Shown: positions 18,760 to 64,000 of the stretch, one piece after another
Layout: each line of letters starts with the position of its first letter
Numbering within the stretch: position 1 is the first letter of the stretch
Source of the DNA: Candidatus Poribacteria bacterium
GTDB lineage: Bacteria > Poribacteria > WGA-4E > WGA-3G
Direction of reading: 5' to 3'
Assembly: GCA_963665235.2 (NCBI GenBank)
Contig: CAXXLX010000001.1
Coordinates: 3,680,001-3,744,000 of the forward strand
DNA length: 64,000 nt
Translations under genes and position numbers: made by a program
The notes under the pieces: model-generated
Databases searched by the model: none
Told to the model about the DNA's origin: nothing
Seen by the model: the letters and a program-made list of their open reading frames with translations, nothing else

Positions 18760-21009
18760 ATGCCTCTGTCACATCAACAGAGAAGGTCCATTATGGTGTT
18801 GATGGAATATGCTACGTTCTGTTCAGAAGAAATTAAACTATTGGCAGTTGAACTTGCTAAACAGGAATTGCCGCTCATTGCACAGCTGGAACCGATTGCG
18901 GATTTTGAAGAACTGCTTACCTTTGCGGAAGCACATCCCACGCCGATTGAATTCGAGCCGAGGTCTCCTGCATGGCGACTTGAATCCGTAGCAGCGCGTG
19001 TCATTGAGGCTATCGCTATTGCCGCGCACGAATCGCTTGACGATACCGAATGGCAAGAGCTCACACGCATCCTTTTGGAACATGCAGCATACCTCTACAC
19101 CTATCCGGACACCCCTACGAATCGTGAAAAGTTGGAAGCAGGTACAGCACTAGCATTAGTCAGCAGTGTGTGCGCGTCTTTGCCGCAAGCCGAACTGTGG
19201 CGACTCGCCGGGTTCGGACGGATTGCGGCAGTGCTCTCGGAGGATGCACCTGCACATGTCATTCAACCGCTTGATGTCGCTTTTCTGCTTGCAAATGAAC
19301 GAAATCTGCCAATTCTGGATTCAGCAATTGCACGCTATAACACAGTTCTGAACCGTCACCTCACACTTAAGCACACATTAAGTTTTCCGCTAAGCGACAC
19401 AGATTTCTTTGACCACCTCAATTTGGAGTTTGCAGGTATGGACACGATAAAATCTGCTGTTTTGGCAGGGGACATACCCAGTGCAAAATCGGCATACACG
19501 GCGTTTCGCCAGCAGCTCTTAGACCGTTCCCTATTAGAAAAAGCGGACACGTATCGTACTGCGAAATTGTCCCTCGAATGCCTGCTTCAATTGTCTATCC
19601 AGCCATCACCGCCTATCGTTGGCACCACGGAGCTCGGCATCGCTGCCCTTCTCCTGCCGGAATTTCGAGGGAGCAAACAACTTCTCTTGCTAGCGTTGCG
19701 CCGCTATAAGTGGATAACCGATACGCTCTTCTATCCGGACGGTTTTCACATTGACACATCCCCGCGTTCTCAAGTTGAGGCTGTTGCCGATTTTGTGAGA
19801 TTTCTGTCTGTTTACGATAGCACAGCAGAACCGCCAGTTGAAAATCTGAAAACATTACTGAAAAAACAGGTAGCGGCATGCATCTCCATAAGTCAACCGG
19901 ATTTGTCGTTTCCACCGTTCGGTGCATCCCCAATCCCGCCTAATTTTGATGTTATTGAACTGTGTCAACAAGTAGGGAATATCGGTTTTGAACGTGACGA
20001 TTTCCTATATATCGCCTCCGCAAGAGCACAAGGAAACGAACCGAACACAACATCGCATGCCCTGCCTTACGTAGGCTATTACGCAATGAGAGATAGCTGG
20101 GGCCCTGATGCACAATATCTGCTTTTTGACACCGGCCCATTGGGCAAACCGGGCTATGAGGACAAGCTTAGTTTTGTGTTACATGCACACGGACAGCAAT
20201 TAATTACGCACAACCATCAGGATAGACACGGAAATTCAGAGAGCGCAGCGAGTCAGGCACACAATAGCTTGCACATTGATGGGAAAGGGCAAAACCGCGC
20301 GGAACAGGCGGAAGCAGAGATTGTTCCGGATGCAGATGCACGCTGGTTAACAACGTCAACATTCGATTTCGTAGAAGGGTGGTATAAAACCGCCGACTTT
20401 CAGCATAAACGTTCTATTTTCTATACTAAAGGCGAATATTTTATACTCCATGACGTAGTCCTCGGCGATGGAGAACGGACGCTATCCCAGACTTTCCATC
20501 TCAATACACTTGGACAGAGCGGAGCTGCTATACACGTCGCAGCGGATGTCGGGCACGCCTGGACGCAGGAAATAGCACAGAGTAATATTTTTATCGGCGC
20601 GGTCGATACAACAAATCTTCGTGTTCAATCGGATGCAAAACGTATCATCTATAACGTTCGCCAGAAATTGCCGGCAGTTATGAACACGCTCCTTTTGCCG
20701 ATGAAACCGCACGTTGAAGAACGTCCCACCCTTACACCCATTGCGGTTAGCACAGACGCGGATGTGTTAGCAACCGGTTTCTCTGTGGAATTGAACGGCG
20801 TAACCGACACCTTTCTCATCTCTGATGACGGTTTAGCGACAATGTCCACCTCAGATTTGTCGGAGAAGGTTGAGTTTATAGGAGAATATCTATTTTTGCG
20901 AGGGGATACGTTCGTAATGCTGAATGCGCGGTTTCTCAAAGTGGGGGCTCAAGTGCTCGCTGCATTAGATGAACCGCGCGCGTACTATGTAGGGATGCGC
21001 CGCGCTTAA
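18760..21009 (+). CDS. Heparinase II/III-like (alginate/GAG lyase family) protein
   Basis: GYYAMRDSW...YLLFDTGPLG...EDKLSFVLHAHG...AHNSLHIDGKGQ. Start may be ATG 18793 or 18802. Confidence 0.8.
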   Translation: MPLSHQQRRSIMVLMEYATFCSEEIKLLAVELAKQELPLIAQLEPIADFEELLTFAEAHPTPIEFEPRSPAWRLESVAARVIEAIAIAAHESLDDTEWQELTRILLEHAAYLYTYPDTPTNREKLEAGTALALVSSVCASLPQAELWRLAGFGRIAAVLSEDAPAHVIQPLDVAFLLANERNLPILDSAIARYNTVLNRHLTLKHTLSFPLSDTDFFDHLNLEFAGMDTIKSAVLAGDIPSAKSAYTAFRQQLLDRSLLEKADTYRTAKLSLECLLQLSIQPSPPIVGTTELGIAALLLPEFRGSKQLLLLALRRYKWITDTLFYPDGFHIDTSPRSQVEAVADFVRFLSVYDSTAEPPVENLKTLLKKQVAACISISQPDLSFPPFGASPIPPNFDVIELCQQVGNIGFERDDFLYIASARAQGNEPNTTSHALPYVGYYAMRDSWGPDAQYLLFDTGPLGKPGYEDKLSFVLHAHGQQLITHNHQDRHGNSESAASQAHNSLHIDGKGQNRAEQAEAEIVPDADARWLTTSTFDFVEGWYKTADFQHKRSIFYTKGEYFILHDVVLGDGERTLSQTFHLNTLGQSGAAIHVAADVGHAWTQEIAQSNIFIGAVDTTNLRVQSDAKRIIYNVRQKLPAVMNTLLLPMKPHVEERPTLTPIAVSTDADVLATGFSVELNGVTDTFLISDDGLATMSTSDLSEKVEFIGEYLFLRGDTFVMLNARFLKVGAQVLAALDEPRAYYVGMRRA

Positions 21010-57010: not shown

Positions 57011-59152
57011 ATGTTAGAGCCAAATAATTTTACCACTTGGGCATTACCGCCCGATGCCTTGGCACGATTCGGAAAAGGACAAGTGCTTGACTTAGCTGTC
57101 TCCTCGGATGGTAAATATCTTGCCGTTGGAAGTTGGGCCGGCGCGTGGTGGTATGAACTCTCCACAGGCACCCCCCTTACGTTGTGTGAAACAGAGCGAG
57201 GTATGATTGACTGTATTGCCCTTTGCCCTGCTGAGAAACCGTGGTTGGCTATTTCGAACTCCGATAGGCATGGGGCACCGGTAGTCAAAGTGTGGGATGT
57301 GCAAACAGGTGAATGTGTATCTGTTCTCGCTCCGTTGCCGAAACCGATTTGCGATTTCCTCTGTTTTTCGTCGTCATCAGGTGAATGGGTTGCTGCAGTC
57401 GCAGAAGAACTTAATACCGAGTTTTCTATCTATATTTGGAACGCGGCGACTGGCACACTACACGCTGAGTTGAATCTTCCGATTGCTGACATTCCATCGC
57501 ACTCGTACGACGATTTGCTCTACTTTGCTACTATCGGTGCTGTGGCGTTTTCACCCAACAATCGCCTGCTTGCCGGTATTCCTAGCTCCCGTGCACTTGA
57601 TAACGCTGAACGCGTTAGTTTCATTTCTGTATGGGATACAACGGTCCAGGAACACATCAGTCTTCTCACAGACGATACGGAAGTTTTGCACTCCTTATGT
57701 TTTTCACCTACCGGACAGCTCCTCGCTACCGGGGGTGCTAAAGGGAGTGTCAAGGTATGGGATGTCTCTACTTGGCAGCTGCATCAGACATATCCATCAC
57801 GTGGGGATTATCTGATGAATGTTTCCTACGCCTCCGATGGTACACTGCGCGTAATGGGTGTCTCTCATGATGAATGCACGGTCACTGTATGGGATGTAGA
57901 ACAGCAAAAGGAGCTTTCCACTTTTCAAGGAAAAATCTATTTTGATGGCGAAATTCAGCCCACTCATTTTTCCAGCGGCGCTCATCTCGCCTTAAAAATT
58001 GATTCTGAAGTGCAGGTCAAATCGGTAAGTGCCAACGGCAAGCTTTTCACACTGCCTTGGGACCTCGGTTATCCACATTCGCTCACATTCTCGGCGGATG
58101 GAAAGACGCTCGCCTGTGGTTATCGCAACTTTGGGGGTGTCATGTTATATGATAGGACAACCCATCATTCGCAACAGATAGCCGTTGAACCGATGTGTGA
58201 AACTCATGCCGTTTTTTCAGATGCTACATCGGGAAAACTCTATACGACCGGGTTTCCGCCAACCTCCAGTGAGTATTGGGGAGACACCCTCACGTTGTGG
58301 GAAATTGGACAAAGTGAACCGATAGCTGAATTGCCTCCTCCTGTCGAGCATCCGGAAAAGTTTGGTCGGTATAGCATGGCATATTCGCCCATAACAAACC
58401 TTCTTGCTTGCGGAAATGAAACGAATGCTGAGGACTTGCCTGAAAATGACCCTGAAAACGGCGCGGTTTATGTATGGGATGTCGCCCGGGGACAGATGCA
58501 GCACATATTCAGAGGCAAACATACGGATTCTGTCGGGTTTGTGAGGTTCAGTCCGGATGGCACACGCCTTATCAGTAGAGATACTGATGGCACAGATCGG
58601 GTGTGGGACGTAACGTGCAGTGAAGAGATAGTCGAATTTCCTGAAAATTTTATGAAGCATGGAGTTTTTGACTACGCTCGTTATGAAGCTGAATATGAAG
58701 CGTTAGCAGAACGCTTTGAAGAGGTATACTTTTTATCTGGTTTCAGACCTCAGGTGTTTTCTTCGTGTGGAAATCTCATTGCGGGTGCATTTTCTGATGA
58801 CAAGATATTAGTGTGGGATATTGAGCGGTGTGAAGCACGCGTGACAATACACAAACCTCTGACAGTGTCAAGGCCTCCTTCGGTGGATCCGATAGAGCTT
58901 TCCCCTTGTGGTCGGTATTTAGCTTACGGTGAAGTTTGGGAAGAGGGTGTAAAGAAAGTTCCTGTTCGGTTGTGGGACATCAGCACCGGTGAAAACATCG
59001 CCACCTTTCGGGGGCATCCGACAGATATTCAGTGCCTTGCGTTTTCACCGGACAGCACAGTTTTAGCAAGCGGTAGTTTCGATGGCACTATTCTGCTCTG
59101 GGATTTGACACCTTATCTATCTCATCACGGATGCAATACGGGAACATTGTAA
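57011..59152 (+). CDS. WD40-repeat beta-propeller protein
   Basis: LPPDALARFGKG N-terminus, many ..WD ends, GHPTDIQCLAFSPDSTVLASGSFDGTILLWD. Confidence 0.93.
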   Translation: MLEPNNFTTWALPPDALARFGKGQVLDLAVSSDGKYLAVGSWAGAWWYELSTGTPLTLCETERGMIDCIALCPAEKPWLAISNSDRHGAPVVKVWDVQTGECVSVLAPLPKPICDFLCFSSSSGEWVAAVAEELNTEFSIYIWNAATGTLHAELNLPIADIPSHSYDDLLYFATIGAVAFSPNNRLLAGIPSSRALDNAERVSFISVWDTTVQEHISLLTDDTEVLHSLCFSPTGQLLATGGAKGSVKVWDVSTWQLHQTYPSRGDYLMNVSYASDGTLRVMGVSHDECTVTVWDVEQQKELSTFQGKIYFDGEIQPTHFSSGAHLALKIDSEVQVKSVSANGKLFTLPWDLGYPHSLTFSADGKTLACGYRNFGGVMLYDRTTHHSQQIAVEPMCETHAVFSDATSGKLYTTGFPPTSSEYWGDTLTLWEIGQSEPIAELPPPVEHPEKFGRYSMAYSPITNLLACGNETNAEDLPENDPENGAVYVWDVARGQMQHIFRGKHTDSVGFVRFSPDGTRLISRDTDGTDRVWDVTCSEEIVEFPENFMKHGVFDYARYEAEYEALAERFEEVYFLSGFRPQVFSSCGNLIAGAFSDDKILVWDIERCEARVTIHKPLTVSRPPSVDPIELSPCGRYLAYGEVWEEGVKKVPVRLWDISTGENIATFRGHPTDIQCLAFSPDSTVLASGSFDGTILLWDLTPYLSHHGCNTGTL

Positions 59153-59226
59153 ACAGGAACGGCTAACGGACGTGGCGTTTCAACATCCGCATTCCATAAA
59201 AATTCAGCATTTTTTCATAAAAAAAA

Positions 59227-59255
59227 TTGACATTTCTCGAAAATTAAGGTATACT
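59227..59255 (+). promoter_or_regulatory. Sigma70 promoter upstream of the split HigA-like gene
   Basis: TTGACA-17 nt-TATACT. Confidence 0.7.
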
Positions 59256-59469
59256 TGATATGTCAACTGGGGATGTAACGATGGCGTGTCCATACTACTA
59301 TATAATCTCAGCGAGTTAACCACTAAGGTGATAATTATGGAGATTAAACCAATCAAAACTCAAGCAGACTATGAAGCTGCACTGAAGGAAATAGAACGAC
59401 TTTGGGGGACGAGCCACGGGTCGCCAGAAGGGGATAAACTTGATGTGCTTGTTACACTAGTAGAGGCTT

Positions 59470-59680
59470 GTAAAGATCACCCAGCTAAAGCTTGGGTGCT
59501 TTGACAAAGCGTAGCCACACACGTTCCCTGTCAAGGATTAAGTTCTTCACTACAGTAATATATCGGGTATTCTGAGCGTGGCAGCTCATAAGATGTCTCG
59601 GATGCTCCCCAAGTCCGACCCCTCTCTGAATACCTGATCTGGATGGGGAAATATACAACCCGAAAGGGAGATTACAAACT
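59470..59680 (+). ncRNA. Putative omegaRNA scaffold
   Basis: 211 nt between the element end and the ORF. Contains a GGATGCTCCCCAAGTCC motif and a terminal CCCGAAAGGG hairpin, typical of IscB/IsrB loci. Confidence 0.75.
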
Positions 59681-60709
59681 ATGTTTGTTCCGGTTCAAAG
59701 CAAGTCTGGCAATCCATTAATGCCGACAGATTCTAACAAAGCAGGCGTGCTAATCAAAAAAGGATTGGCAACGCCATATTGGCGTAACGGTATCTTTTGT
59801 ATTCGGCTAAACTACGAGACAAAAGAACACACACAGAAAATCTGTGTAGGCGTGGATCCTGGTTCCAAGAAAGAAGGCTTCACGGTGAAGTCTGAGGCTC
59901 ACACATATCTGAATGTGCAAGCCGATGCACATAACAAAGTTGGAAAAAAAGTTAAAAGAAGACGTATCTTGAGACGGGGTCGTAGAACCCGGAAGTGTCC
60001 AAACCGGAAGCATCGAACAAATCGAGCAGCGAAGAAAGAACGTCTTCCGGCAGGCACACGTGCCCGTTGGGATTGGAAACTTCGGATATTAGATTGGTTG
60101 TCTAAACTCTATCCTGTTACACACGTCTGTGTTGAGGACATCAAAGCACGGACTATTGAACATGCTAAGAAATGGAACACAGCTTTTAGTCCGCTTGAGG
60201 TGGGCAAGACATGGTTTTATGGTGAAATAGAAAAGCGGTGGGAACTGCTAACCCTTCAAGGGTGGCAGACAAAACAGCTGCGCGACAGGCTCGGTTTGAA
60301 AAAGTCATCTCAAAAGTTGGCAGCGACTTTTGAGGCACATTGTGTTGACGCGTGGTGTTTAGCCTACCATACCGTGGGGGGGGATGCGGAAACCGTGGAC
60401 AATACAGATATATTCTGCATTTCACCGATACCCATACGCAGGCGGGAACTGCATCGGCAGAACCCACAAACCGGGGGAAACAGACCCCGCTATGGGGGGA
60501 CTGTGCTAACGGATACACTTATCAAAAACACACTGATCAAACATGGTAAGCATGGTATCACACGCCTTGCGGGTATTAATGCGAAAGGGGTGTTTTCTAT
60601 CTATAGCTTAGAAGGCGAACGCCTCACAACAAGTGCGAAACGCACAGATTTTCAAGTCCTAACACGCTTGAACTTCAACTACAAAGGCGGATTTTCCTCC
60701 CCCGCATAA
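59681..60709 (+). CDS. isrB: IsrB RNA-guided nickase (PLMP plus split RuvC, no HNH)
   Basis: PLMP, RuvC-I VGVDPGSK, bridge helix RRILRRGRRTRK, RuvC-II CVEDIK, RuvC-III HCVDAWCLA; 342 aa with no HNH insertion. Confidence 0.88.
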   Translation: MFVPVQSKSGNPLMPTDSNKAGVLIKKGLATPYWRNGIFCIRLNYETKEHTQKICVGVDPGSKKEGFTVKSEAHTYLNVQADAHNKVGKKVKRRRILRRGRRTRKCPNRKHRTNRAAKKERLPAGTRARWDWKLRILDWLSKLYPVTHVCVEDIKARTIEHAKKWNTAFSPLEVGKTWFYGEIEKRWELLTLQGWQTKQLRDRLGLKKSSQKLAATFEAHCVDAWCLAYHTVGGDAETVDNTDIFCISPIPIRRRELHRQNPQTGGNRPRYGGTVLTDTLIKNTLIKHGKHGITRLAGINAKGVFSIYSLEGERLTTSAKRTDFQVLTRLNFNYKGGFSSPA

Positions 60710-61058
60710 ATGCTGGGGGTTTCCAATCCGAAGAACTTGATGAAGAGGAACATTATCCGATTCCACCGCCAGACCCTATTGAAGCAATCCTTCACTACAT
60801 GGAAAACCAAGGGTTATCTGAAGATGACCTCGAACCCTATCTCGGTTCGTGTCCTTACGTATTAGAAGTCCTGAATCGGCAACGCAGCTTGTCTCTGGAC
60901 ATGATTCGGAAATTGCACAAAGCACTCGGAATTCCAGATGATATCTTGGTTCAACCTTATGCATTACGAACGAATTCATGAAAAATTTCGGTTTTCATTA
61001 GAATTAGTTTCAACAACATTTCCACTTTGTAGGAATTTGTTATCAAAACTAGCTATAT

Positions 61059-61203
61059 TAACGCAAGTTGCCATATAGTAGCACAAACTTCCTAGTTTGT
61101 GCCATAAGGGTGTAAACTAAAAGTTCACGCTACAATTAGCAGCAGTTTTTCACTAAAAGCGGCGTTCCCAAGTCTAAAAACTTATAGGTAGCAACTTGGG
61201 TTA
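61059..61203. mobile_element. MITE-like family B copy; TAT flanking duplication
   Basis: TAACGCAAGTTGC...GCAACTTGGGTTA; internal GTAGCACAAACT-TCCT-AGTTTGTGC and a second, inverted REP. Confidence 0.8.
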
Positions 61204-61225
61204 TATTATGAGGAAAACAAAAATT

Positions 61226-64000
61226 ATGAGATTATTACGATATATACTATGCCTATTCACAATTTTGGCATTCCTTGCACTACCGGTAAGTGCGGATGTC
61301 GATTGGAAAGCACTTGATGTAGGAAATTTATCCTCTGCTATTTACAATACCGCAGTCGTTGGATTTCCCAGTAGTCCTACATCGAACCCCTCCGGATGGT
61401 GGCCTGCCGGAACAAATGACTCCTACATCTATGAAGGCGATATTTGGATCGGTGCCAAAAAAGGCGGGGAAATTGGCGTTTCTGAAGCAGATGGACGGCA
61501 CAGCGAAATTTGGCCGACCGACGACGTGCCGGAGGTCATTTCAAACAAACCCGGTGTGACAGCAAAAGGGACACCGACAAGTCAAACCATCATGTTCAAA
61601 TGCTCTGACACCAACCCCGCAGCAAACACGGGGTTAATCCTCGGGCTAGAACTTGAGGTCAACGGATATCAATGGAGTTATGCGCCACTTTACGATTTCT
61701 TTATCCTTGAGTACAACGTCAAAAACGTTGGAGAGGACACGCTTGAAGACCTATTTATGGCGTTCCGATACGACGTGGATATCTCCAGCAATGAAACCGG
61801 GACATCGAACTACTCCGCTGATGACTTCGTCGCCCTCGATCAGACTCCAGACGGGCTCAACCCTGACGCACACCCGAACCGTTATCTCTCTTACGGATTC
61901 TCCAACGCTTCCTCACCGGGTTACATCGGTTTGCGTGTTCTAGACGCATATCTCGGGGAGGATGAGGAAGATGCCGCGGCAAAAATCCCGTTCACAGCAC
62001 ATAAGCGGATTACGATTTCTACTGACCCAACCACTGATGCCGAGATGTACGCGCTAATCAGTACTCCTGGGGTTGAACCGCTTCCTGCAAACTATGACGA
62101 CCAACGTTTCATCCAATCTTATGGCCCGATTGAATCGTTCGCGCCCGGCGACTCCTTCAATATCATAATCACAGTCGCAATCGGCGAAGGCCTTTCAGGA
62201 TTGCAAGCGGCTTCGGATTGGGCCCAGAAATTGTACGACGACGATTACATTGCCCCAGCACCACCCCCCTCACCCCTTCTCGCAGCTTATCCAGCAGATG
62301 GACAGGTGTCGCTCGTCTGGGAGAGTGCCGAACGTTGGGTGGATGCGGGAGTCAATAAAAGCATTGAGGAATACATTGACCCAACCGACCCGGATAAAAT
62401 CTTTGAAGGATATCGGGTGTACAGACGGGATACCAGTTACAATCAGGACACCGGCACCCCTGTGGAAAGCTGGAAATTGCTAATGGAATTAGACAAACCG
62501 AGTGCCACAGGCAATTTCTTCACAGTGGCACACGTCGGCAAGCAGTCCGATGCTATCATTGAAAATGAGGGAGACGAGCCCTACTTCGCTGACTTCTTCA
62601 AAAACGCAACGTACGCCATTAAATTCAATTCAAGCACTAATTTTGAGGTGATTAACACAACGTTGTGGGAAGTTATGGCGTATAATGCCGAATTTCCAGC
62701 AAATGGCGGCGGGTACGTTGTCGTCAAAGATCCGGCCACAGGTGAAGCTTACCCGGATGGGACATACCGCTCTGGAGAACTCATCTATTTCGGTGGGCTC
62801 TACGTTAAAATTACCGATGGTCCCTCAGGGCCTCCGGTCGCAGGGGATATTTTCCGCGTCGTTTCCACACCATCAATTGCCCTCGGTGAGGATGTAGGTA
62901 TCAAGAATTTCTATACCGATGAAGGGCTAATTAATGGAACGCAATACACCTACGCGGTCACCTCTTACGATACAGGCAACCCGCAAAAGGGATTGCCCGC
63001 GATGGAGAGCAGTCAAATTGAAACGATGGTTCATGTTGTACCACGTCCTCACCCAGCAGGATACAAAGCACCTGTTGTTGAGGTCAAACAGGCCGACGCT
63101 GTAAACGTCACTGTTGAACCCATGGTGCTCGTACCAAGCGATATTACGGGAAATGAATATAAGATTGTCTGGTACGGCGCAAAACAGGTCGGACCCGCAG
63201 GATACATCACAGGCCCCGGCTATCAACCCCCCGGTTATGAAATCGTTGACACCGTAACGAATCAAACGGTAGTCGAAAGACAACCTTTCGCTTGGTATGA
63301 CCCTGCCAACCAGCAAGCTGTTGAAGTGCTCTCCCCGATGTTTGATGGCATCGTCTTGAAGCTAACAGGTGCTGATGTCTCCTACGGAACCCCAGCCGAA
63401 AACGGAATTAACGCCGTTAAATTGACAGCAGGCACAGTCACCGACTGGTCAGTGAAAATTGAATCCCCCGGCGTGGCTGATAACACCTGGCCAAACGTCT
63501 GGTGGTCCACCTATTATCGTCCGCATACCTACACTATCACGTTTACTGACGATACACACGTCAAAGTGGTAGACGAAGATACGGGGGAAGAGATAGCATT
63601 CAATGACCAACGGGCCGATGGATACGCTATCCTGACAGGGGCAGGTTGGAGCGATGAATACGTCCCAGCGGATACAGCAGGTTATTTCCGTATTTTCATT
63701 CGCGGTGCTTACGTGTACATTTTCGATCCGAACAGTGAAATCTCTGCTGGCGATGTATTTACTGTCGAAATGGGCGGTATTAGTGCACCACAAGATGGAG
63801 ACGAGCTGCTTTTGACAACTCAAGGCGCATCGCTTGATGCTGAAGACATCAAAGCGGAGCTCGAAAACATTCGCGTCGTGCCGAATCCTTACCTTGTCAC
63901 AAACAGAGCTGTAACCGAAGTAGGAACAGACAAAATCTTTTTCACACATCTCCCACCTCGATGCACAATCCGAATTTATACGCTGACAGGTGAATTGGTA
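61226..64000 (+). CDS. Large secreted protein with FN3-like region and T9SS-like C-terminal domain (3'-truncated; absent from the ORF track)
   Basis: MRLLRYILCLFTILAFLALPVSA signal, G.WPAGT...YIYEG.IWIGA, FEGYRVYR, YTYAVTSYDTG. The start and the final IRVVPNPY...IFFTHLPPRCTIRIYTLTGELV are in the same frame. Confidence 0.85.
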   Translation, partial: MRLLRYILCLFTILAFLALPVSADVDWKALDVGNLSSAIYNTAVVGFPSSPTSNPSGWWPAGTNDSYIYEGDIWIGAKKGGEIGVSEADGRHSEIWPTDDVPEVISNKPGVTAKGTPTSQTIMFKCSDTNPAANTGLILGLELEVNGYQWSYAPLYDFFILEYNVKNVGEDTLEDLFMAFRYDVDISSNETGTSNYSADDFVALDQTPDGLNPDAHPNRYLSYGFSNASSPGYIGLRVLDAYLGEDEEDAAAKIPFTAHKRITISTDPTTDAEMYALISTPGVEPLPANYDDQRFIQSYGPIESFAPGDSFNIIITVAIGEGLSGLQAASDWAQKLYDDDYIAPAPPPSPLLAAYPADGQVSLVWESAERWVDAGVNKSIEEYIDPTDPDKIFEGYRVYRRDTSYNQDTGTPVESWKLLMELDKPSATGNFFTVAHVGKQSDAIIENEGDEPYFADFFKNATYAIKFNSSTNFEVINTTLWEVMAYNAEFPANGGGYVVVKDPATGEAYPDGTYRSGELIYFGGLYVKITDGPSGPPVAGDIFRVVSTPSIALGEDVGIKNFYTDEGLINGTQYTYAVTSYDTGNPQKGLPAMESSQIETMVHVVPRPHPAGYKAPVVEVKQADAVNVTVEPMVLVPSDITGNEYKIVWYGAKQVGPAGYITGPGYQPPGYEIVDTVTNQTVVERQPFAWYDPANQQAVEVLSPMFDGIVLKLTGADVSYGTPAENGINAVKLTAGTVTDWSVKIESPGVADNTWPNVWWSTYYRPHTYTITFTDDTHVKVVDEDTGEEIAFNDQRADGYAILTGAGWSDEYVPADTAGYFRIFIRGAYVYIFDPNSEISAGDVFTVEMGGISAPQDGDELLLTTQGASLDAEDIKAELENIRVVPNPYLVTNRAVTEVGTDKIFFTHLPPRCTIRIYTLTGELV

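What the first reader, a model, noticed from the sequence alone, without database searches (positions are those of the whole stretch)
59337..60981. IsrB OMEGA element splitting an antitoxin gene, with guide, target and TAM readable from the flanks
Seen: a 342-aa PLMP/RuvC protein without HNH, a 211-nt structured leader, subterminal hairpins and no tnpA. Removing 59470..60739 restores ...GTAGAGGCTT|ATGAAGAG..., an intact HigA-like ORF (EAY-EEEH). Established: IscB/IsrB take their guide from the DNA 5' of the omegaRNA and need a 3' TAM; NTGA is reported for DtIsrB. Inference: the guide is the last ~20 nt of higA' (TTGTTACACTAGTAGAGGCTT), the TAM is ATGA, and the host promoter at 59227 supplies the transcript. 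The element would then nick the empty higA allele. The scaffold is short, so this is a candidate compact ortholog from a poorly sampled lineage.
Basis: partly seen in the sequence, partly recalled or inferred. Interest (0 to 1): 0.8.

Follow-up and report, generated by a model that had tools for sequence, protein, structure and literature searches.

The report
IsrB guide-RNA transposon splitting a higA-like gene
A small mobile element that carries an RNA-guided DNA nickase (IsrB) and its guide RNA has landed inside a small regulator gene; it is a clear, well-bounded example of a kind of element that is already known.

Summary
Window 59470-60739 (1270 bp) is a non-autonomous IS200/605-type element. 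It carries a ~211-nt omegaRNA scaffold and an intact 342-aa IsrB (PLMP/RRXRR, split RuvC, no HNH; best solved relative DtIsrB, E 7.7e-38). It sits inside a HigA-like HTH gene.

Uninterrupted orthologues in 11 related genomes, and contigs of four public runs, join 59469 to 60740 as predicted. So ATGA (60740-60743) is host sequence: the transposon-adjacent motif. The genome holds about 20 intact isrB copies and 30 omegaRNA copies. All 15 scored 5' ends start GTAAAGATCACCC after unrelated flanks. All 31 scored 3' ends are followed by ATGA. The RNA fold has strong covariation, and the isrB copies show dN/dS of 0.07-0.23.

Guide (59450-59469), TAM and dependence on the host promoter follow published IscB/IsrB biology; nicking is untested. 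The "compact ortholog from a poorly sampled lineage" claim is not supported.

Two extras emerged. More than half of the copies lie exactly before a host start codon. One near-identical strain contig lacks the element and reads GTAA where the TAM was.

Verdict: a new member of a known kind, of moderate to low interest.

The parts
59227..59255 (+). Sigma-70-like promoter of the host higA-like gene (TTGACA, 17 nt, TATACT). It is the presumed source of the transcript that carries guide, omegaRNA and isrB.
   Evidence: 11 of 12 consensus matches. It is the only + strand promoter-like site in 59100-61100. Function is inferred, not shown.
59337..59469 (+). 5' part of the interrupted HigA-like HTH gene: codons 1-44 plus the first base of codon 45.
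   Evidence: 74-85% nucleotide identity to the 5' parts of uninterrupted orthologues in 11 loci.
59450..59469 (+). Predicted guide segment of the omegaRNA: the 20 nt of host DNA directly 5' of the scaffold.
   Evidence: Position follows the IscB/IsrB rule. The 3' 16-mer occurs once in the genome. At its own site it is followed by GTAAAG, not NTGA. Length (20 nt) is borrowed from DtIsrB, not measured.
59470..60739 (+). The mobile element (1270 bp): non-autonomous IS200/605 (ISC1-type), without inverted terminal repeats and without target duplication.
   Evidence: Boundaries come from 15 of 15 5' junctions and 31 of 31 3' junctions in the genome, from empty orthologous alleles and from contig joints 59469->60740.
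59470..59680 (+). omegaRNA scaffold. Elements: S1 59470-76/59544-50; SL1 59478-98 (also the transposon-end hairpin); SL2 59499-536; S2 59553-55/59639-41; long helix 59562-72/59628-38; SL4 59573-88; SL5 59598-618; SL7 59659-68, with SD-like GGGAG at 59666-70. Pseudoknots: 59514-18 with 59578-82, and 59607-10 with 59645-48.
   Evidence: Rfam HEARO spans 59470-59675 end to end but weakly (18.7 bits, E 0.57). Own model R1 scores 227 bits. Covariation: 27 of 50 pairs with compensatory changes against 6-11 in slid controls, and 30 of 50 against 9-14 in five other genomes.
59681..60709 (+). isrB, 342 aa plus stop. PLMP domain, RuvC-I D59, bridge helix, RuvC-II E152, RuvC-III H220/D223; no HNH.
   Evidence: DtIsrB (8dmb) at E 7.7e-38 (single sequence) and 6.6e-43 (profile), aligned over residues 3-315. 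The catalytic residues are invariant in 15 of 15 copies aligned. dN/dS is 0.07-0.23 in the 10 of 12 pairs that gave a dS.
60699..60719 (.). Subterminal imperfect hairpin at the TAM-proximal end (the left end in transposon convention). The isrB stop codon lies in its loop. The foot lies 20 nt from the cleavage point.
   Evidence: The same architecture is seen next to three resident tnpA genes: target, 20-nt spacer, C5...G5 hairpin.
60740..60743 (+). ATGA: host-derived transposon-adjacent motif (TCAT on the transposon's top strand).
   Evidence: 31 of 31 3' junctions in this genome. Present in 7 of 11 uninterrupted orthologues at this exact position. In five related genomes: ATGA 16, GTGA 4, ATGG 1 of 21 parsed. 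DtIsrB cuts NTGA, including ATGA.
60740..60981 (+). 3' part of the HigA-like gene (rest of codon 45 to the stop), holding the helix-turn-helix.
   Evidence: HTH_3 at 8.8e-4, below Pfam's cut-off; 88-90% protein identity to orthologues; the intact orthologue matches HigA 5ycl/5ifg at E 2e-5.

Best explanation
Window 59470-60739 is a non-autonomous IS200/605-family (ISC1-type) insertion sequence. It consists of an omegaRNA gene followed by isrB, the RuvC-only relative of IscB/Cas9.

Shown by comparison:
- It inserted without duplication into codon 45 of a HigA-like HTH gene, directly 5' of the host tetranucleotide ATGA (TCAT| on the transposon's top strand).

Inferred from published IscB/IsrB work:
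- Transcription from the host promoter at 59227 reads through the last ~20 nt of higA' into the scaffold. This gives an omegaRNA whose 5' guide matches the left flank.
- IsrB bound to this RNA would recognise the flank sequence only when it is followed by NTGA. That is the empty site or donor joint left by excision, or an unoccupied allele. It would nick the non-target strand there.
- Repair from an occupied copy would then restore the element (restorative homing).
- At the occupied site the guide match is followed by the scaffold's own GTAA, so the element does not target itself.

Inferred for mobility:
- Mobility itself would need a Y1 TnpA supplied in trans. The genome has about eight intact tnpA genes. 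Three of them sit in IS605-type elements whose end architecture resembles this element's TAM-proximal end.
For: Protein:
- Pfam RRXRR 1.4e-30, with no HNH.
- The best solved relative is DtIsrB 8dmb, at 7.7e-38 and 6.6e-43 by profile over residues 3-315. IscB structures match only the N-terminal ~115-138 residues.
- D59, E152, H220 and D223 are invariant in 15 of 15 aligned copies.
- dN/dS is 0.07-0.23 in 10 of 12 pairs; dS was saturated in the other 2.

RNA:
- HEARO aligns from exactly 59470 to 59675.
- 94.0% of cells are paired. 27 of 50 pairs have compensatory changes, against 6-11 in slid controls. Covariation score is 0.386 against 0.05-0.08.
- This replicates in 30 copies from five other genomes: 30 of 50 against 9-14.
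- Both pseudoknots expected for IsrB omegaRNAs can be drawn, and the SL2/SL4 one covaries (architecture from PMC9581776).

Boundaries and TAM:
- 15 of 15 5' ends and 31 of 31 3' ends.
- Empty orthologues.
- Joint 59469->60740 in 4 of 4 runs, on contigs about 91% identical, that is from relatives.

Transcription:
- Promoter-like site.
- The published rule that IscB-type guides need outside transcription.
- In one metatranscriptome's contigs the scaffold region has depth 98-1031. The first 282 nt of the ORF (59734-60015) have depth 0, and 60016-60579 have 4.7-7. A DNA run of the same study gave 205-625 against 26-226 over the same stretches. This is a weak hint, from relatives.

TnpA in trans:
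- 13 Y1_Tnp matches, 8 of them full length without stops.
- Three have target, 20-nt spacer and C5/G5 hairpin like this element's end.
Against: - No biochemical activity was tested. Guide length, TAM use by the protein, and nicking are all inferred.
- The HEARO match is far below Rfam's gathering score (18.7 against 83 bits).
- The resident tnpA-bearing elements sit next to TTAT, not TCAT. I could not show that their TnpA would act on this element.
- Restorative homing has been shown for TnpB and IscB, but not for the nickase IsrB (review PMC13565253, passages read).
- One 203-nt contig of run X1 comes from a near-identical strain (2 differences in 177 nt, depth 18.9). It lacks the element but joins 59472 to 60743 and reads GGCTT-GTAA-AGAGG (E-A-C-K). 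I read it as a derived footprint for three reasons. All 11 orthologues have T|A(T/C)G at this point. G1 and U2 of the scaffold pair in helix S1. The deletion lies between two AAGA repeats. But the contig has only 26(+4) letters on its short side, and it is a single contig.
- The RNA evidence comes from assembled contigs at 90% or more likeness, not from this copy.
Confidence: 0.85

Rival explanations
1. The element is a real IsrB insertion sequence, but this copy (or the whole family here) is a relic. It no longer moves and IsrB no longer acts; what we see is fixed debris.
For: No tnpA in the element. Resident tnpA elements use a different flanking tetranucleotide, TTAT. Several fragments and copies with internal stops exist (for example C1:3813658 with 4 stops, C1:1512867, C2:58834). 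No empty allele from the same strain with a precise junction was seen.
Against: - 20 of 31 protein matches are full length without stops.
- dN/dS is 0.07-0.23.
- The first 140 nt are 100% identical in three copies, and the elements are 92-95% identical overall.
- The omegaRNA structure is kept by compensatory changes.
- The locus is polymorphic in a near-identical strain.
Confidence: 0.1
2. The conserved ATGA is the last four bases of the element, which would then be 59470-60743. The host gene would not be restored by precise excision, and the TAM and guide reading would be shifted.
For: BLAST similarity between copies runs through ATGA (query positions up to 1344/1345). All 31 copies share it, as a terminal sequence would. 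The X1 contig lacking the element also lacks ATG.
Against: Uninterrupted orthologues in 11 of 11 loci carry the tetranucleotide as part of the TAT-GAA (Y-E) codons: ATGA in 7, ATGC in 1, ACGA in 3. Removing 59470-60743 would create an in-frame TAG (read). In related genomes the position varies (GTGA, ATGG), as a flanking motif would.
Confidence: 0.03
3. IsrB and omegaRNA here have been co-opted for a host-directed role, such as regulation of the gene downstream of the insertion, rather than transposon maintenance.
For: 16 of 26 elements in this genome, and 11 of 21 parsed in five relatives, lie exactly between a host 5' UTR and its start codon, in sense orientation. Expression of element and host gene must therefore be linked.
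Against: The catalytic residues are intact. The guide of each copy matches only its own flank, where no TAM follows. The window copy is inside a coding region, not at a start codon. The placement is explained more simply by the known need for outside transcription.
Confidence: 0.02

Closest known systems
DtIsrB-omegaRNA (Desulfovirgula thermocuniculi; PDB 8DMB; Hirano et al. 2022, PMC9581776)
   Same: Domain order PLMP, RuvC-I, bridge helix, RuvC-II, RuvC-III, C-terminal part, with no HNH. Size ~350 aa. Scaffold starts GU(C/A)AA and ends in an SD-containing hairpin just before the ATG. TAM NTGA, with ATGA cut in vitro.
   Different: Sequence similarity to DtIsrB is distant: E 7.7e-38 with the single sequence, 6.6e-43 with the profile. 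The last ~27 residues, where DtIsrB's TAM-reading R323/Q326 lie, did not align. The scaffold is ~205-211 nt against 262 nt, with no counterparts of the peripheral SL3, SL6 and SL8. Pseudoknot partners are SL2-SL4 and SL5-tail, the arrangement the paper describes for CsIsrB, K2IsrB and BbIsrB.
IS200/IS605-family non-autonomous IscB elements of Geobacillus stearothermophilus (Meers et al., bioRxiv 10.1101/2023.03.14.532601)
   Same: Scaffold derived from the transposon right end. Guide outside the boundary. Reliance on outside transcription, with an orientation bias. TAM shared with TnpA's target. Scarless donor joint. tnpA supplied elsewhere.
   Different: The effector here is IsrB (a nickase, no HNH). 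No excision or interference data exist for this family. The placement bias is sharper here, at the SD/start-codon junction.
Rfam RF02033 HEARO RNA
   Same: The match covers the whole model (1-211) and starts at the element's first base.
   Different: It scores 18.7 bits against a gathering score of 83. By Rfam's criterion this is not a member, although the fold is supported independently.
E. coli HigA antitoxin (PDB 5ycl, 5ifg): the interrupted host gene
   Same: The intact orthologue (L041, 128 aa) aligns over residues 6-113 with HigA residues 21-132, at E 2e-5. It has a C-terminal HTH.
   Different: No higB-like gene is adjacent in the window or in L041. No NCBIfam hit; Pfam HTH_3 is below its cut-off. 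The strongest library hit is the N-terminal 127 positions of PADLOC PD-Lambda-2_B, at 5.4e-43.

Membership tests
IsrB (OMEGA RuvC-only nickase) | N-terminal PLMP domain and arginine-rich bridge helix (Pfam RRXRR) | tested here: met
   PF14239 at 1.4e-30 over residues 3-155. NPLMP at residues 11-15 and RRILRRGRRTRK read.
IsrB (OMEGA RuvC-only nickase) | Split RuvC with catalytic D / E / H..D | tested here: met
   D59, E152, H220 and D223 align with the VDPG, TED and H..D motifs of DtIsrB. They are invariant in 15 of 15 copies.
IsrB (OMEGA RuvC-only nickase) | No HNH domain between RuvC-II and RuvC-III | tested here: met
   No HNH family at E<=1. Only 67 residues lie between E152 and H220. NCBIfam guided_IscB matches residues 5-155 only, at 89.6 bits against a cut-off of 175. 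IscB structures align only to about residue 138.
IsrB (OMEGA RuvC-only nickase) | C-terminal TAM-interacting domain reading NTGA | tested here: inconclusive
   The profile alignment to 8dmb stops at residue 315 of 342. The region of DtIsrB R323/Q326 is not aligned. No structure was predicted.
IsrB (OMEGA RuvC-only nickase) | Cognate omegaRNA directly upstream, with guide adaptor (S1/SL1/SL2), nexus, two pseudoknots and an SD hairpin | tested here: met
   The HEARO match itself is sub-threshold.
IsrB (OMEGA RuvC-only nickase) | Guide- and TAM-dependent nicking of the non-target strand | not testable with these tools
   Needs biochemistry or an interference assay.
IS200/IS605 family (ISC1 group), non-autonomous | Subterminal imperfect hairpins instead of terminal inverted repeats | tested here: met
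   Hairpins at 59478-59498 and 60699-60719, each with a bulge.
IS200/IS605 family (ISC1 group), non-autonomous | Insertion 3' of a fixed tetranucleotide, with no target-site duplication | tested here: met
   31 of 31 3' junctions are flanked by ATGA. Empty alleles show no duplicated bases.
IS200/IS605 family (ISC1 group), non-autonomous | Mobilised by a Y1 HUH transposase TnpA | tested here: inconclusive
   None in the element. There are 13 PF01797 matches elsewhere in the genome. Three have a similar left-end layout but sit next to TTAT. Excision was not tested.
Rfam HEARO (RF02033) | Score at or above the gathering threshold of 83 bits | tested here: not met
   18.7 bits, E 0.57.
HigA antitoxin of a HigBA pair (host gene) | Adjacent HigB-type toxin gene | tested here: not met
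   No such ORF lies next to the gene in the window or next to the intact orthologue in L041. Fold-level likeness to HigA comes only from sequence.

The most novel reading that the evidence does not exclude
This IsrB family lives as a 'promoter trap'. Its TAM (ATGA, sometimes GTGA) doubles as a start codon plus one base. Copies are preferentially gained or kept exactly between a host gene's ribosome-binding site and its start codon. There the host promoter makes the guide-bearing omegaRNA. The purine-rich element end (..CCGAAGA....G|ATG), or coupling to isrB translation, keeps the host gene translated.

In addition, the only same-strain empty allele seen is one whose TAM was replaced (ATGA to GTAA). 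That would be the survivor expected if IsrB really removes precise excision products in nature. It would be the first natural population-level trace of restorative homing by a nickase.
Probability: 0.3. Interest if true: 0.55.

Novelty: new member of a known kind. Interest (0 to 1): 0.3.

Why it matters
As an annotation it is ordinary. IsrB/omegaRNA elements, their TAM logic and their need for outside transcription are in print.

Its value is as a clean natural system. One genome holds about 20 intact isrB genes in several diverged subfamilies, 30 omegaRNA copies (7 of them stand-alone), resident tnpA genes, exact empty alleles in relatives and a polymorphic locus.

Such a system could be used to test what has not been shown for IsrB: whether a nickase supports restorative homing. 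It could also test why copies accumulate at start codons. The TAM (ATGA) and the scaffold boundaries are defined well enough to build the RNP directly.

Tried and rejected
- Rfam alone does not settle the RNA. HEARO is sub-threshold, and a Ribosomal S15 leader hit at 60960-61018 (E 0.1, 20.3 bits against 39.5) is chance.
- RNAalifold on the plain MAFFT alignment recovered only part of the fold, because SL2 and the long helix were out of register. I replaced it with a hand structure and a covariance model.
- Exact-motif search for the element's ends next to nine tnpA genes found nothing. Only the layout is shared.
It fits the tnpA elements (AAAA with TTAT) but not this element (GAAA or GAGA with TCAT). 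This rests on recall, so I left it out of the argument.
- The four 31-nt matches to SL1 are ends of another IS605-type family flanked by ATAA, not copies of this element.
- I checked one start-codon-adjacent copy by looking for orthologues of its host gene in 25 relatives. None was found with this query, so it led nowhere.
- The metagenome scan for same-species higA alleles gave 88% identity at best. It adds no information on the footprint allele.
- Parts of the read-laying output without cover, and small-share runs X9-X12, were not used.
- No structure prediction, complex prediction or atlas search was run. The TAM-reading residues therefore stay unassigned.
- Supplementary files of the papers were not seen. 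TAM logos and omegaRNA lengths of the other IsrB orthologues may be there.
- Papers: PMC9581776, passages and sections 6 and 8 read. bioRxiv 10.1101/2023.03.14.532601, passages only. PMC13565253, passages only.
- That a start-codon placement of IscB/IsrB elements is not in print rests on one search listing and those passages. This is a weak basis.
Full report
**What is in the sequence**

On the + strand, a promoter-like site (TTGACA, 17 nt, TATACT; 11 of 12 matches) lies at 59227-59255. An ATG at 59337 opens a frame that runs normally for 44 codons. It then reads through ...GAGGCTT|GTAAAGATCACC... into a stop at 59502-59504.

From 59470 to 59680 there is a 211-nt non-coding stretch. A 342-aa ORF follows at 59681-60709. 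Its stop codon sits in the loop of a hairpin at 60699-60719. Twenty bases further on come ATGA (60740-60743) and the C-terminal, helix-turn-helix part of the interrupted gene, ending at 60981.

**The boundary is right, and ATGA belongs to the host**

The C-terminal piece finds orthologues in 20 of 40 related genomes. In the 11 loci fetched, the DNA matching the left piece and the DNA matching the right piece abut. In L039, for example, they occupy 1363-1495 and 1496-1727. The junction reads T|ATGA in 7 loci, T|ATGC in 1 and T|ACGA in 3. L041 and L045 read GAGGCTT|ATGAAGAG letter for letter.

Contigs of four public runs, laid on the window, carry a joint 59469->60740 that skips 1270 bases. These contigs differ from the window at about 9% of positions. 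They are therefore uninterrupted genes of relatives, not excision products of this strain.

If ATGA were removed with the element, the frame would hit TAG. So the element is 59470-60739. It made no target duplication, and it lies 5' of a host ATGA.

**It is one member of a large family in this genome**

A DNA search of the assembly (5.3 Mb, 4 contigs) gives 57 matches. Three copies are 92-95% identical over the whole element, and about a dozen are at 69-76%. The protein search gives 31 matches, of which the top 20 have no internal stop. Their ORFs are 322-372 aa.

All 15 5' ends that BLAST aligned from base 1 start GTAAAGATCACCC after unrelated sequence. All 31 3' ends that aligned to the last base end ...TTG and are followed by ATGA and then unrelated sequence. 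A second group of copies starts GTCAATAACCCC. The 20 nt upstream differ in all 20 full-length copies.

**The protein is IsrB**

- Pfam gives RRXRR at 1.4e-30 and nothing else at E<=1.
- NCBIfam's IscB model matches only residues 5-155, below its cut-off.
- Among solved structures the best match is DtIsrB (8dmb), at 7.7e-38 over residues 3-277. With a profile of 15 copies it is 6.6e-43 over residues 3-315.
- IscB structures match only the N-terminal ~115-138 residues.
- The RuvC residues D59, E152, H220 and D223 align with DtIsrB's and are invariant in 15 of 15 copies.
- Only 67 residues separate E152 and H220, which leaves no room for an HNH domain.
- Between copies, dN/dS is 0.07-0.23 in 10 of 12 pairs; dS was saturated in the other 2. 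The protein is therefore under selection.
- The last ~27 residues, where DtIsrB reads the TAM, did not align. I cannot name the TAM-reading residues.

**The leader is an omegaRNA**

Rfam's HEARO model aligns end to end from exactly 59470 to 59675, but at only 18.7 bits (gathering score 83). That is a lead, not membership.

Folding each distinct copy in three segments gives the same topology in all subfamilies:
- an outer stem S1;
- SL1, which is also the transposon-end hairpin;
- SL2;
- a short stem and an 11-bp long-range helix enclosing two hairpins;
- a last hairpin holding the Shine-Dalgarno sequence.

I wrote this structure on the alignment, built a covariance model and re-aligned. In 30 copies of this genome (24 distinct):
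- 94.0% of cells pair;
- 27 of 50 pairs show compensatory double changes, against 6-11 when partners are slid by 1-3 columns;
- the covariation score is 0.386, against 0.05-0.08.

In 30 copies from five other genomes (28 distinct) the figures are 88.8%, 30 of 50 against 9-14, and 0.390 against 0.05-0.07. Both alignments are fitted to the model, which favours the structure. The slid controls share that bias.

Two pseudoknots can be drawn. The loop of SL5 (CCCC) pairs with GGGG just before the last hairpin; this is invariant, so uninformative. The loop of SL2 pairs with the loop of SL4, and this one changes in step: GCCAC/GUGGC, ACCAC/GUGGU, UGCCA/UGGCA, UACCAA/UUGGUA.

This matches the core that Hirano et al. 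describe, four stems plus SL1/2/4/5/7. The pseudoknot partners are those they report for CsIsrB, K2IsrB and BbIsrB. The peripheral SL3, SL6 and SL8 of DtIsrB are missing, as in several published orthologues (PMC9581776, sections 6 and 8).

**How it most likely works**

The following is established for IscB/IsrB, not shown here.
- The scaffold derives from the transposon right end, and the guide is the adjacent outside sequence.
- Transcription must start outside the element.
- TnpA and the nuclease use the same TAM.
- The nuclease cuts the scarless donor joint, so that recombination restores the element (Meers et al., passages).
- IsrB nicks the non-target strand next to NTGA, and DtIsrB cuts ATGA targets.

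Applied to this copy:
- the guide is 59450-59469;
- the TAM is ATGA;
- the target is the unoccupied higA-like sequence;
- the transcript would come from the promoter at 59227, since no + strand promoter-like site lies in the leader.

The guide's 16-mer occurs once in the genome. There it is followed by the scaffold's own GTAAAG, not NTGA, so the occupied site is not a target.

In a metatranscriptome's contigs, summed depth over the scaffold is 98-1031. It is 0 over the first 282 nt of the ORF (59734-60015) and 4.7-7 over 60016-60579. A DNA run of the same study gives 205-625 against 26-226 over the same stretches. These are assembled contigs at 90% or more likeness and may come from other copies and relatives. 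I count this as a weak hint only.

Mobility would need a Y1 transposase in trans. The genome has 13 PF01797 matches, 8 of them full length. Three of these sit in tnpA-tnpB elements whose left end has the same layout as this element's TAM-proximal end: target, 20-nt spacer beginning CAAGT.TTC, then a C5...G5 hairpin. Their target is TTAT, not TCAT.

**The awkward allele**

Run X1 has a 203-nt contig (depth 18.9; neighbouring perfect contigs 20.9-26.7). It matches 60743-60919 with 2 differences. Its first 26 letters match 59447-59472, and four letters (AAGA) fit either side. It therefore reads GGCTT-GTAA-AGAGG.

I do not think it refutes the boundary, for three reasons.
- All 11 orthologues have the tyrosine codon and none has GTA.
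- G1 and U2 are paired members of scaffold helix S1, in this family and in relatives.
- The joint lies between two AAGA repeats (59473-76 and 60743-46), as a microhomology deletion or an off-register excision would.

The simplest reading is a derived footprint that lost the TAM. Such an allele would be immune to IsrB, which is what one would expect to survive if precise excision products are re-targeted. It rests on one contig with a short side, and I could not lay reads again, so it stays a lead.

**Placement at start codons**

Of 26 elements in this genome with both ends paired, 16 are followed by an ATGA whose ATG opens an ORF of 120 aa or more, with an in-frame stop less than 50 codons upstream. 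Of these, 11 also have an SD motif in the 5' flank. The background is 5.75% and 2.55% of 39646 ATGA sites (binomial p 4e-14 and 2e-11). Against a deliberately generous baseline, counting only start-like and non-coding sites (32.5% and 14.4%), p is 0.003 and 0.0005.

In five related genomes my script parsed 21 of 30 elements. The TAMs are ATGA 16, GTGA 4 and ATGG 1. Eleven of the 21 are start-like and 6 also have an SD. The 9 unparsed rows were dropped from this count, and no background was computed for those genomes.

This sharpens the orientation bias already reported for IscB. The window copy is not of this class, because it splits a coding region.

**Comparison and novelty**

Everything that defines IsrB and could be tested by sequence is met. 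The RNA fold is supported independently of Rfam. The IS200/605 hallmarks are met, except that TnpA action is untested.

- The protein size is ordinary.
- The scaffold is at the short end of what is published, but not shorter than the HEARO model, and it has the known core.
- Close relatives are plentiful. There are 3078 proteins at E<=1e-10. The best 120 are at 73-94% identity, and the 6 with names are 'RRXRR domain-containing' or 'hypothetical' proteins of Candidatus Poribacteria.
- IsrB was found in 14 of 40 related genomes, 13 of them among the 24 of the same family.

It is a new member of a known kind.

**The host gene**

The host gene is HigA-like by sequence (E 2e-5 to 5ycl/5ifg). No toxin gene lies beside it. 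'Antitoxin' is therefore a family resemblance, not a shown role.

Noticed in passing
G000-wide; for example C1:935821(-), C1:672984(+), C1:504553(+). Relatives: L186, L190, L191, L193, L201, L206: More than half of the IsrB/omegaRNA elements lie exactly between a host 5' UTR (often with an SD) and an ATG(A) that opens a long ORF, in sense orientation. Counts: 16 of 26 here, against a 5.75% background, and 11 of 21 parsed in five related genomes. Many downstream ORFs begin MK.., as real N-termini do.
   Followed up: partly
window 59472/60743 (run X1, contig 'record 5'): A near-identical strain allele lacks the element but has GTA in place of the TAM's ATG (GGCTT-GTAA-AGAGG, E-A-C-K). The joint lies between two AAGA repeats. 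It looks like a TAM-less footprint. The evidence is a single 203-nt contig with a short side of 26(+4) letters.
   Followed up: partly
G000 C1:337433-337901, 504553-505002, 532866-533432, 681345-680877, 1154421-1154878, 1888563-1888074, 19462-19942: Seven short elements (about 450-570 bp) keep both ends and a full-length omegaRNA match (122-148 bits, with an insert of ~40 nt in the SL5 region) but have no isrB. They are stand-alone omegaRNA elements, a class reported for IscB systems.
   Followed up: partly
window ~61054-61202: A ~148-bp interspersed repeat lies just downstream of the higA-like gene. It has 68 copies of 120 nt or more in the genome. It has very high depth in all four runs and is absent from relatives' contigs (joint 61053->61202). 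It looks MITE-like and was not characterised.
   Followed up: partly
G000 C1:3153209, C2:339792, C1:32727 (tnpA-tnpB); C1:4266716, C1:1142329, C1:646537: A second IS605-type family has tnpA followed by a tnpB-like ORF. Its end hairpin (CCCCC.AGCTTTAGCTGGGGG) nearly equals SL1 of the IsrB elements, and it is flanked by TTAT/ATAA instead of TCAT/ATGA. It is a candidate source of TnpA in trans.
   Followed up: partly
G000 copies C1:3598792, C1:3020110, C1:2522249: Three copies carry an extra 40-85-nt hairpin insert between the omegaRNA core and the SD hairpin. It reuses the motif ..GGTCATCCGTTTTACTTCCG.., sometimes twice. An 8-aa indel (PRSHRGHP) is polymorphic among IsrB copies.
   Followed up: no
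L041:1366-1749 (intact orthologue of the host gene): The HigA-like protein matches the N-terminal 127 positions of the 402-position PADLOC model PD-Lambda-2_B at 5.4e-43. The same module therefore occurs fused in a candidate defence protein.
   Followed up: no
window 57011-59152 and 61196-64000: The neighbours are a 713-aa WD40-like repeat protein upstream and a large secreted-looking protein (more than 935 aa, running off the window) downstream. Neither was analysed.
   Followed up: no
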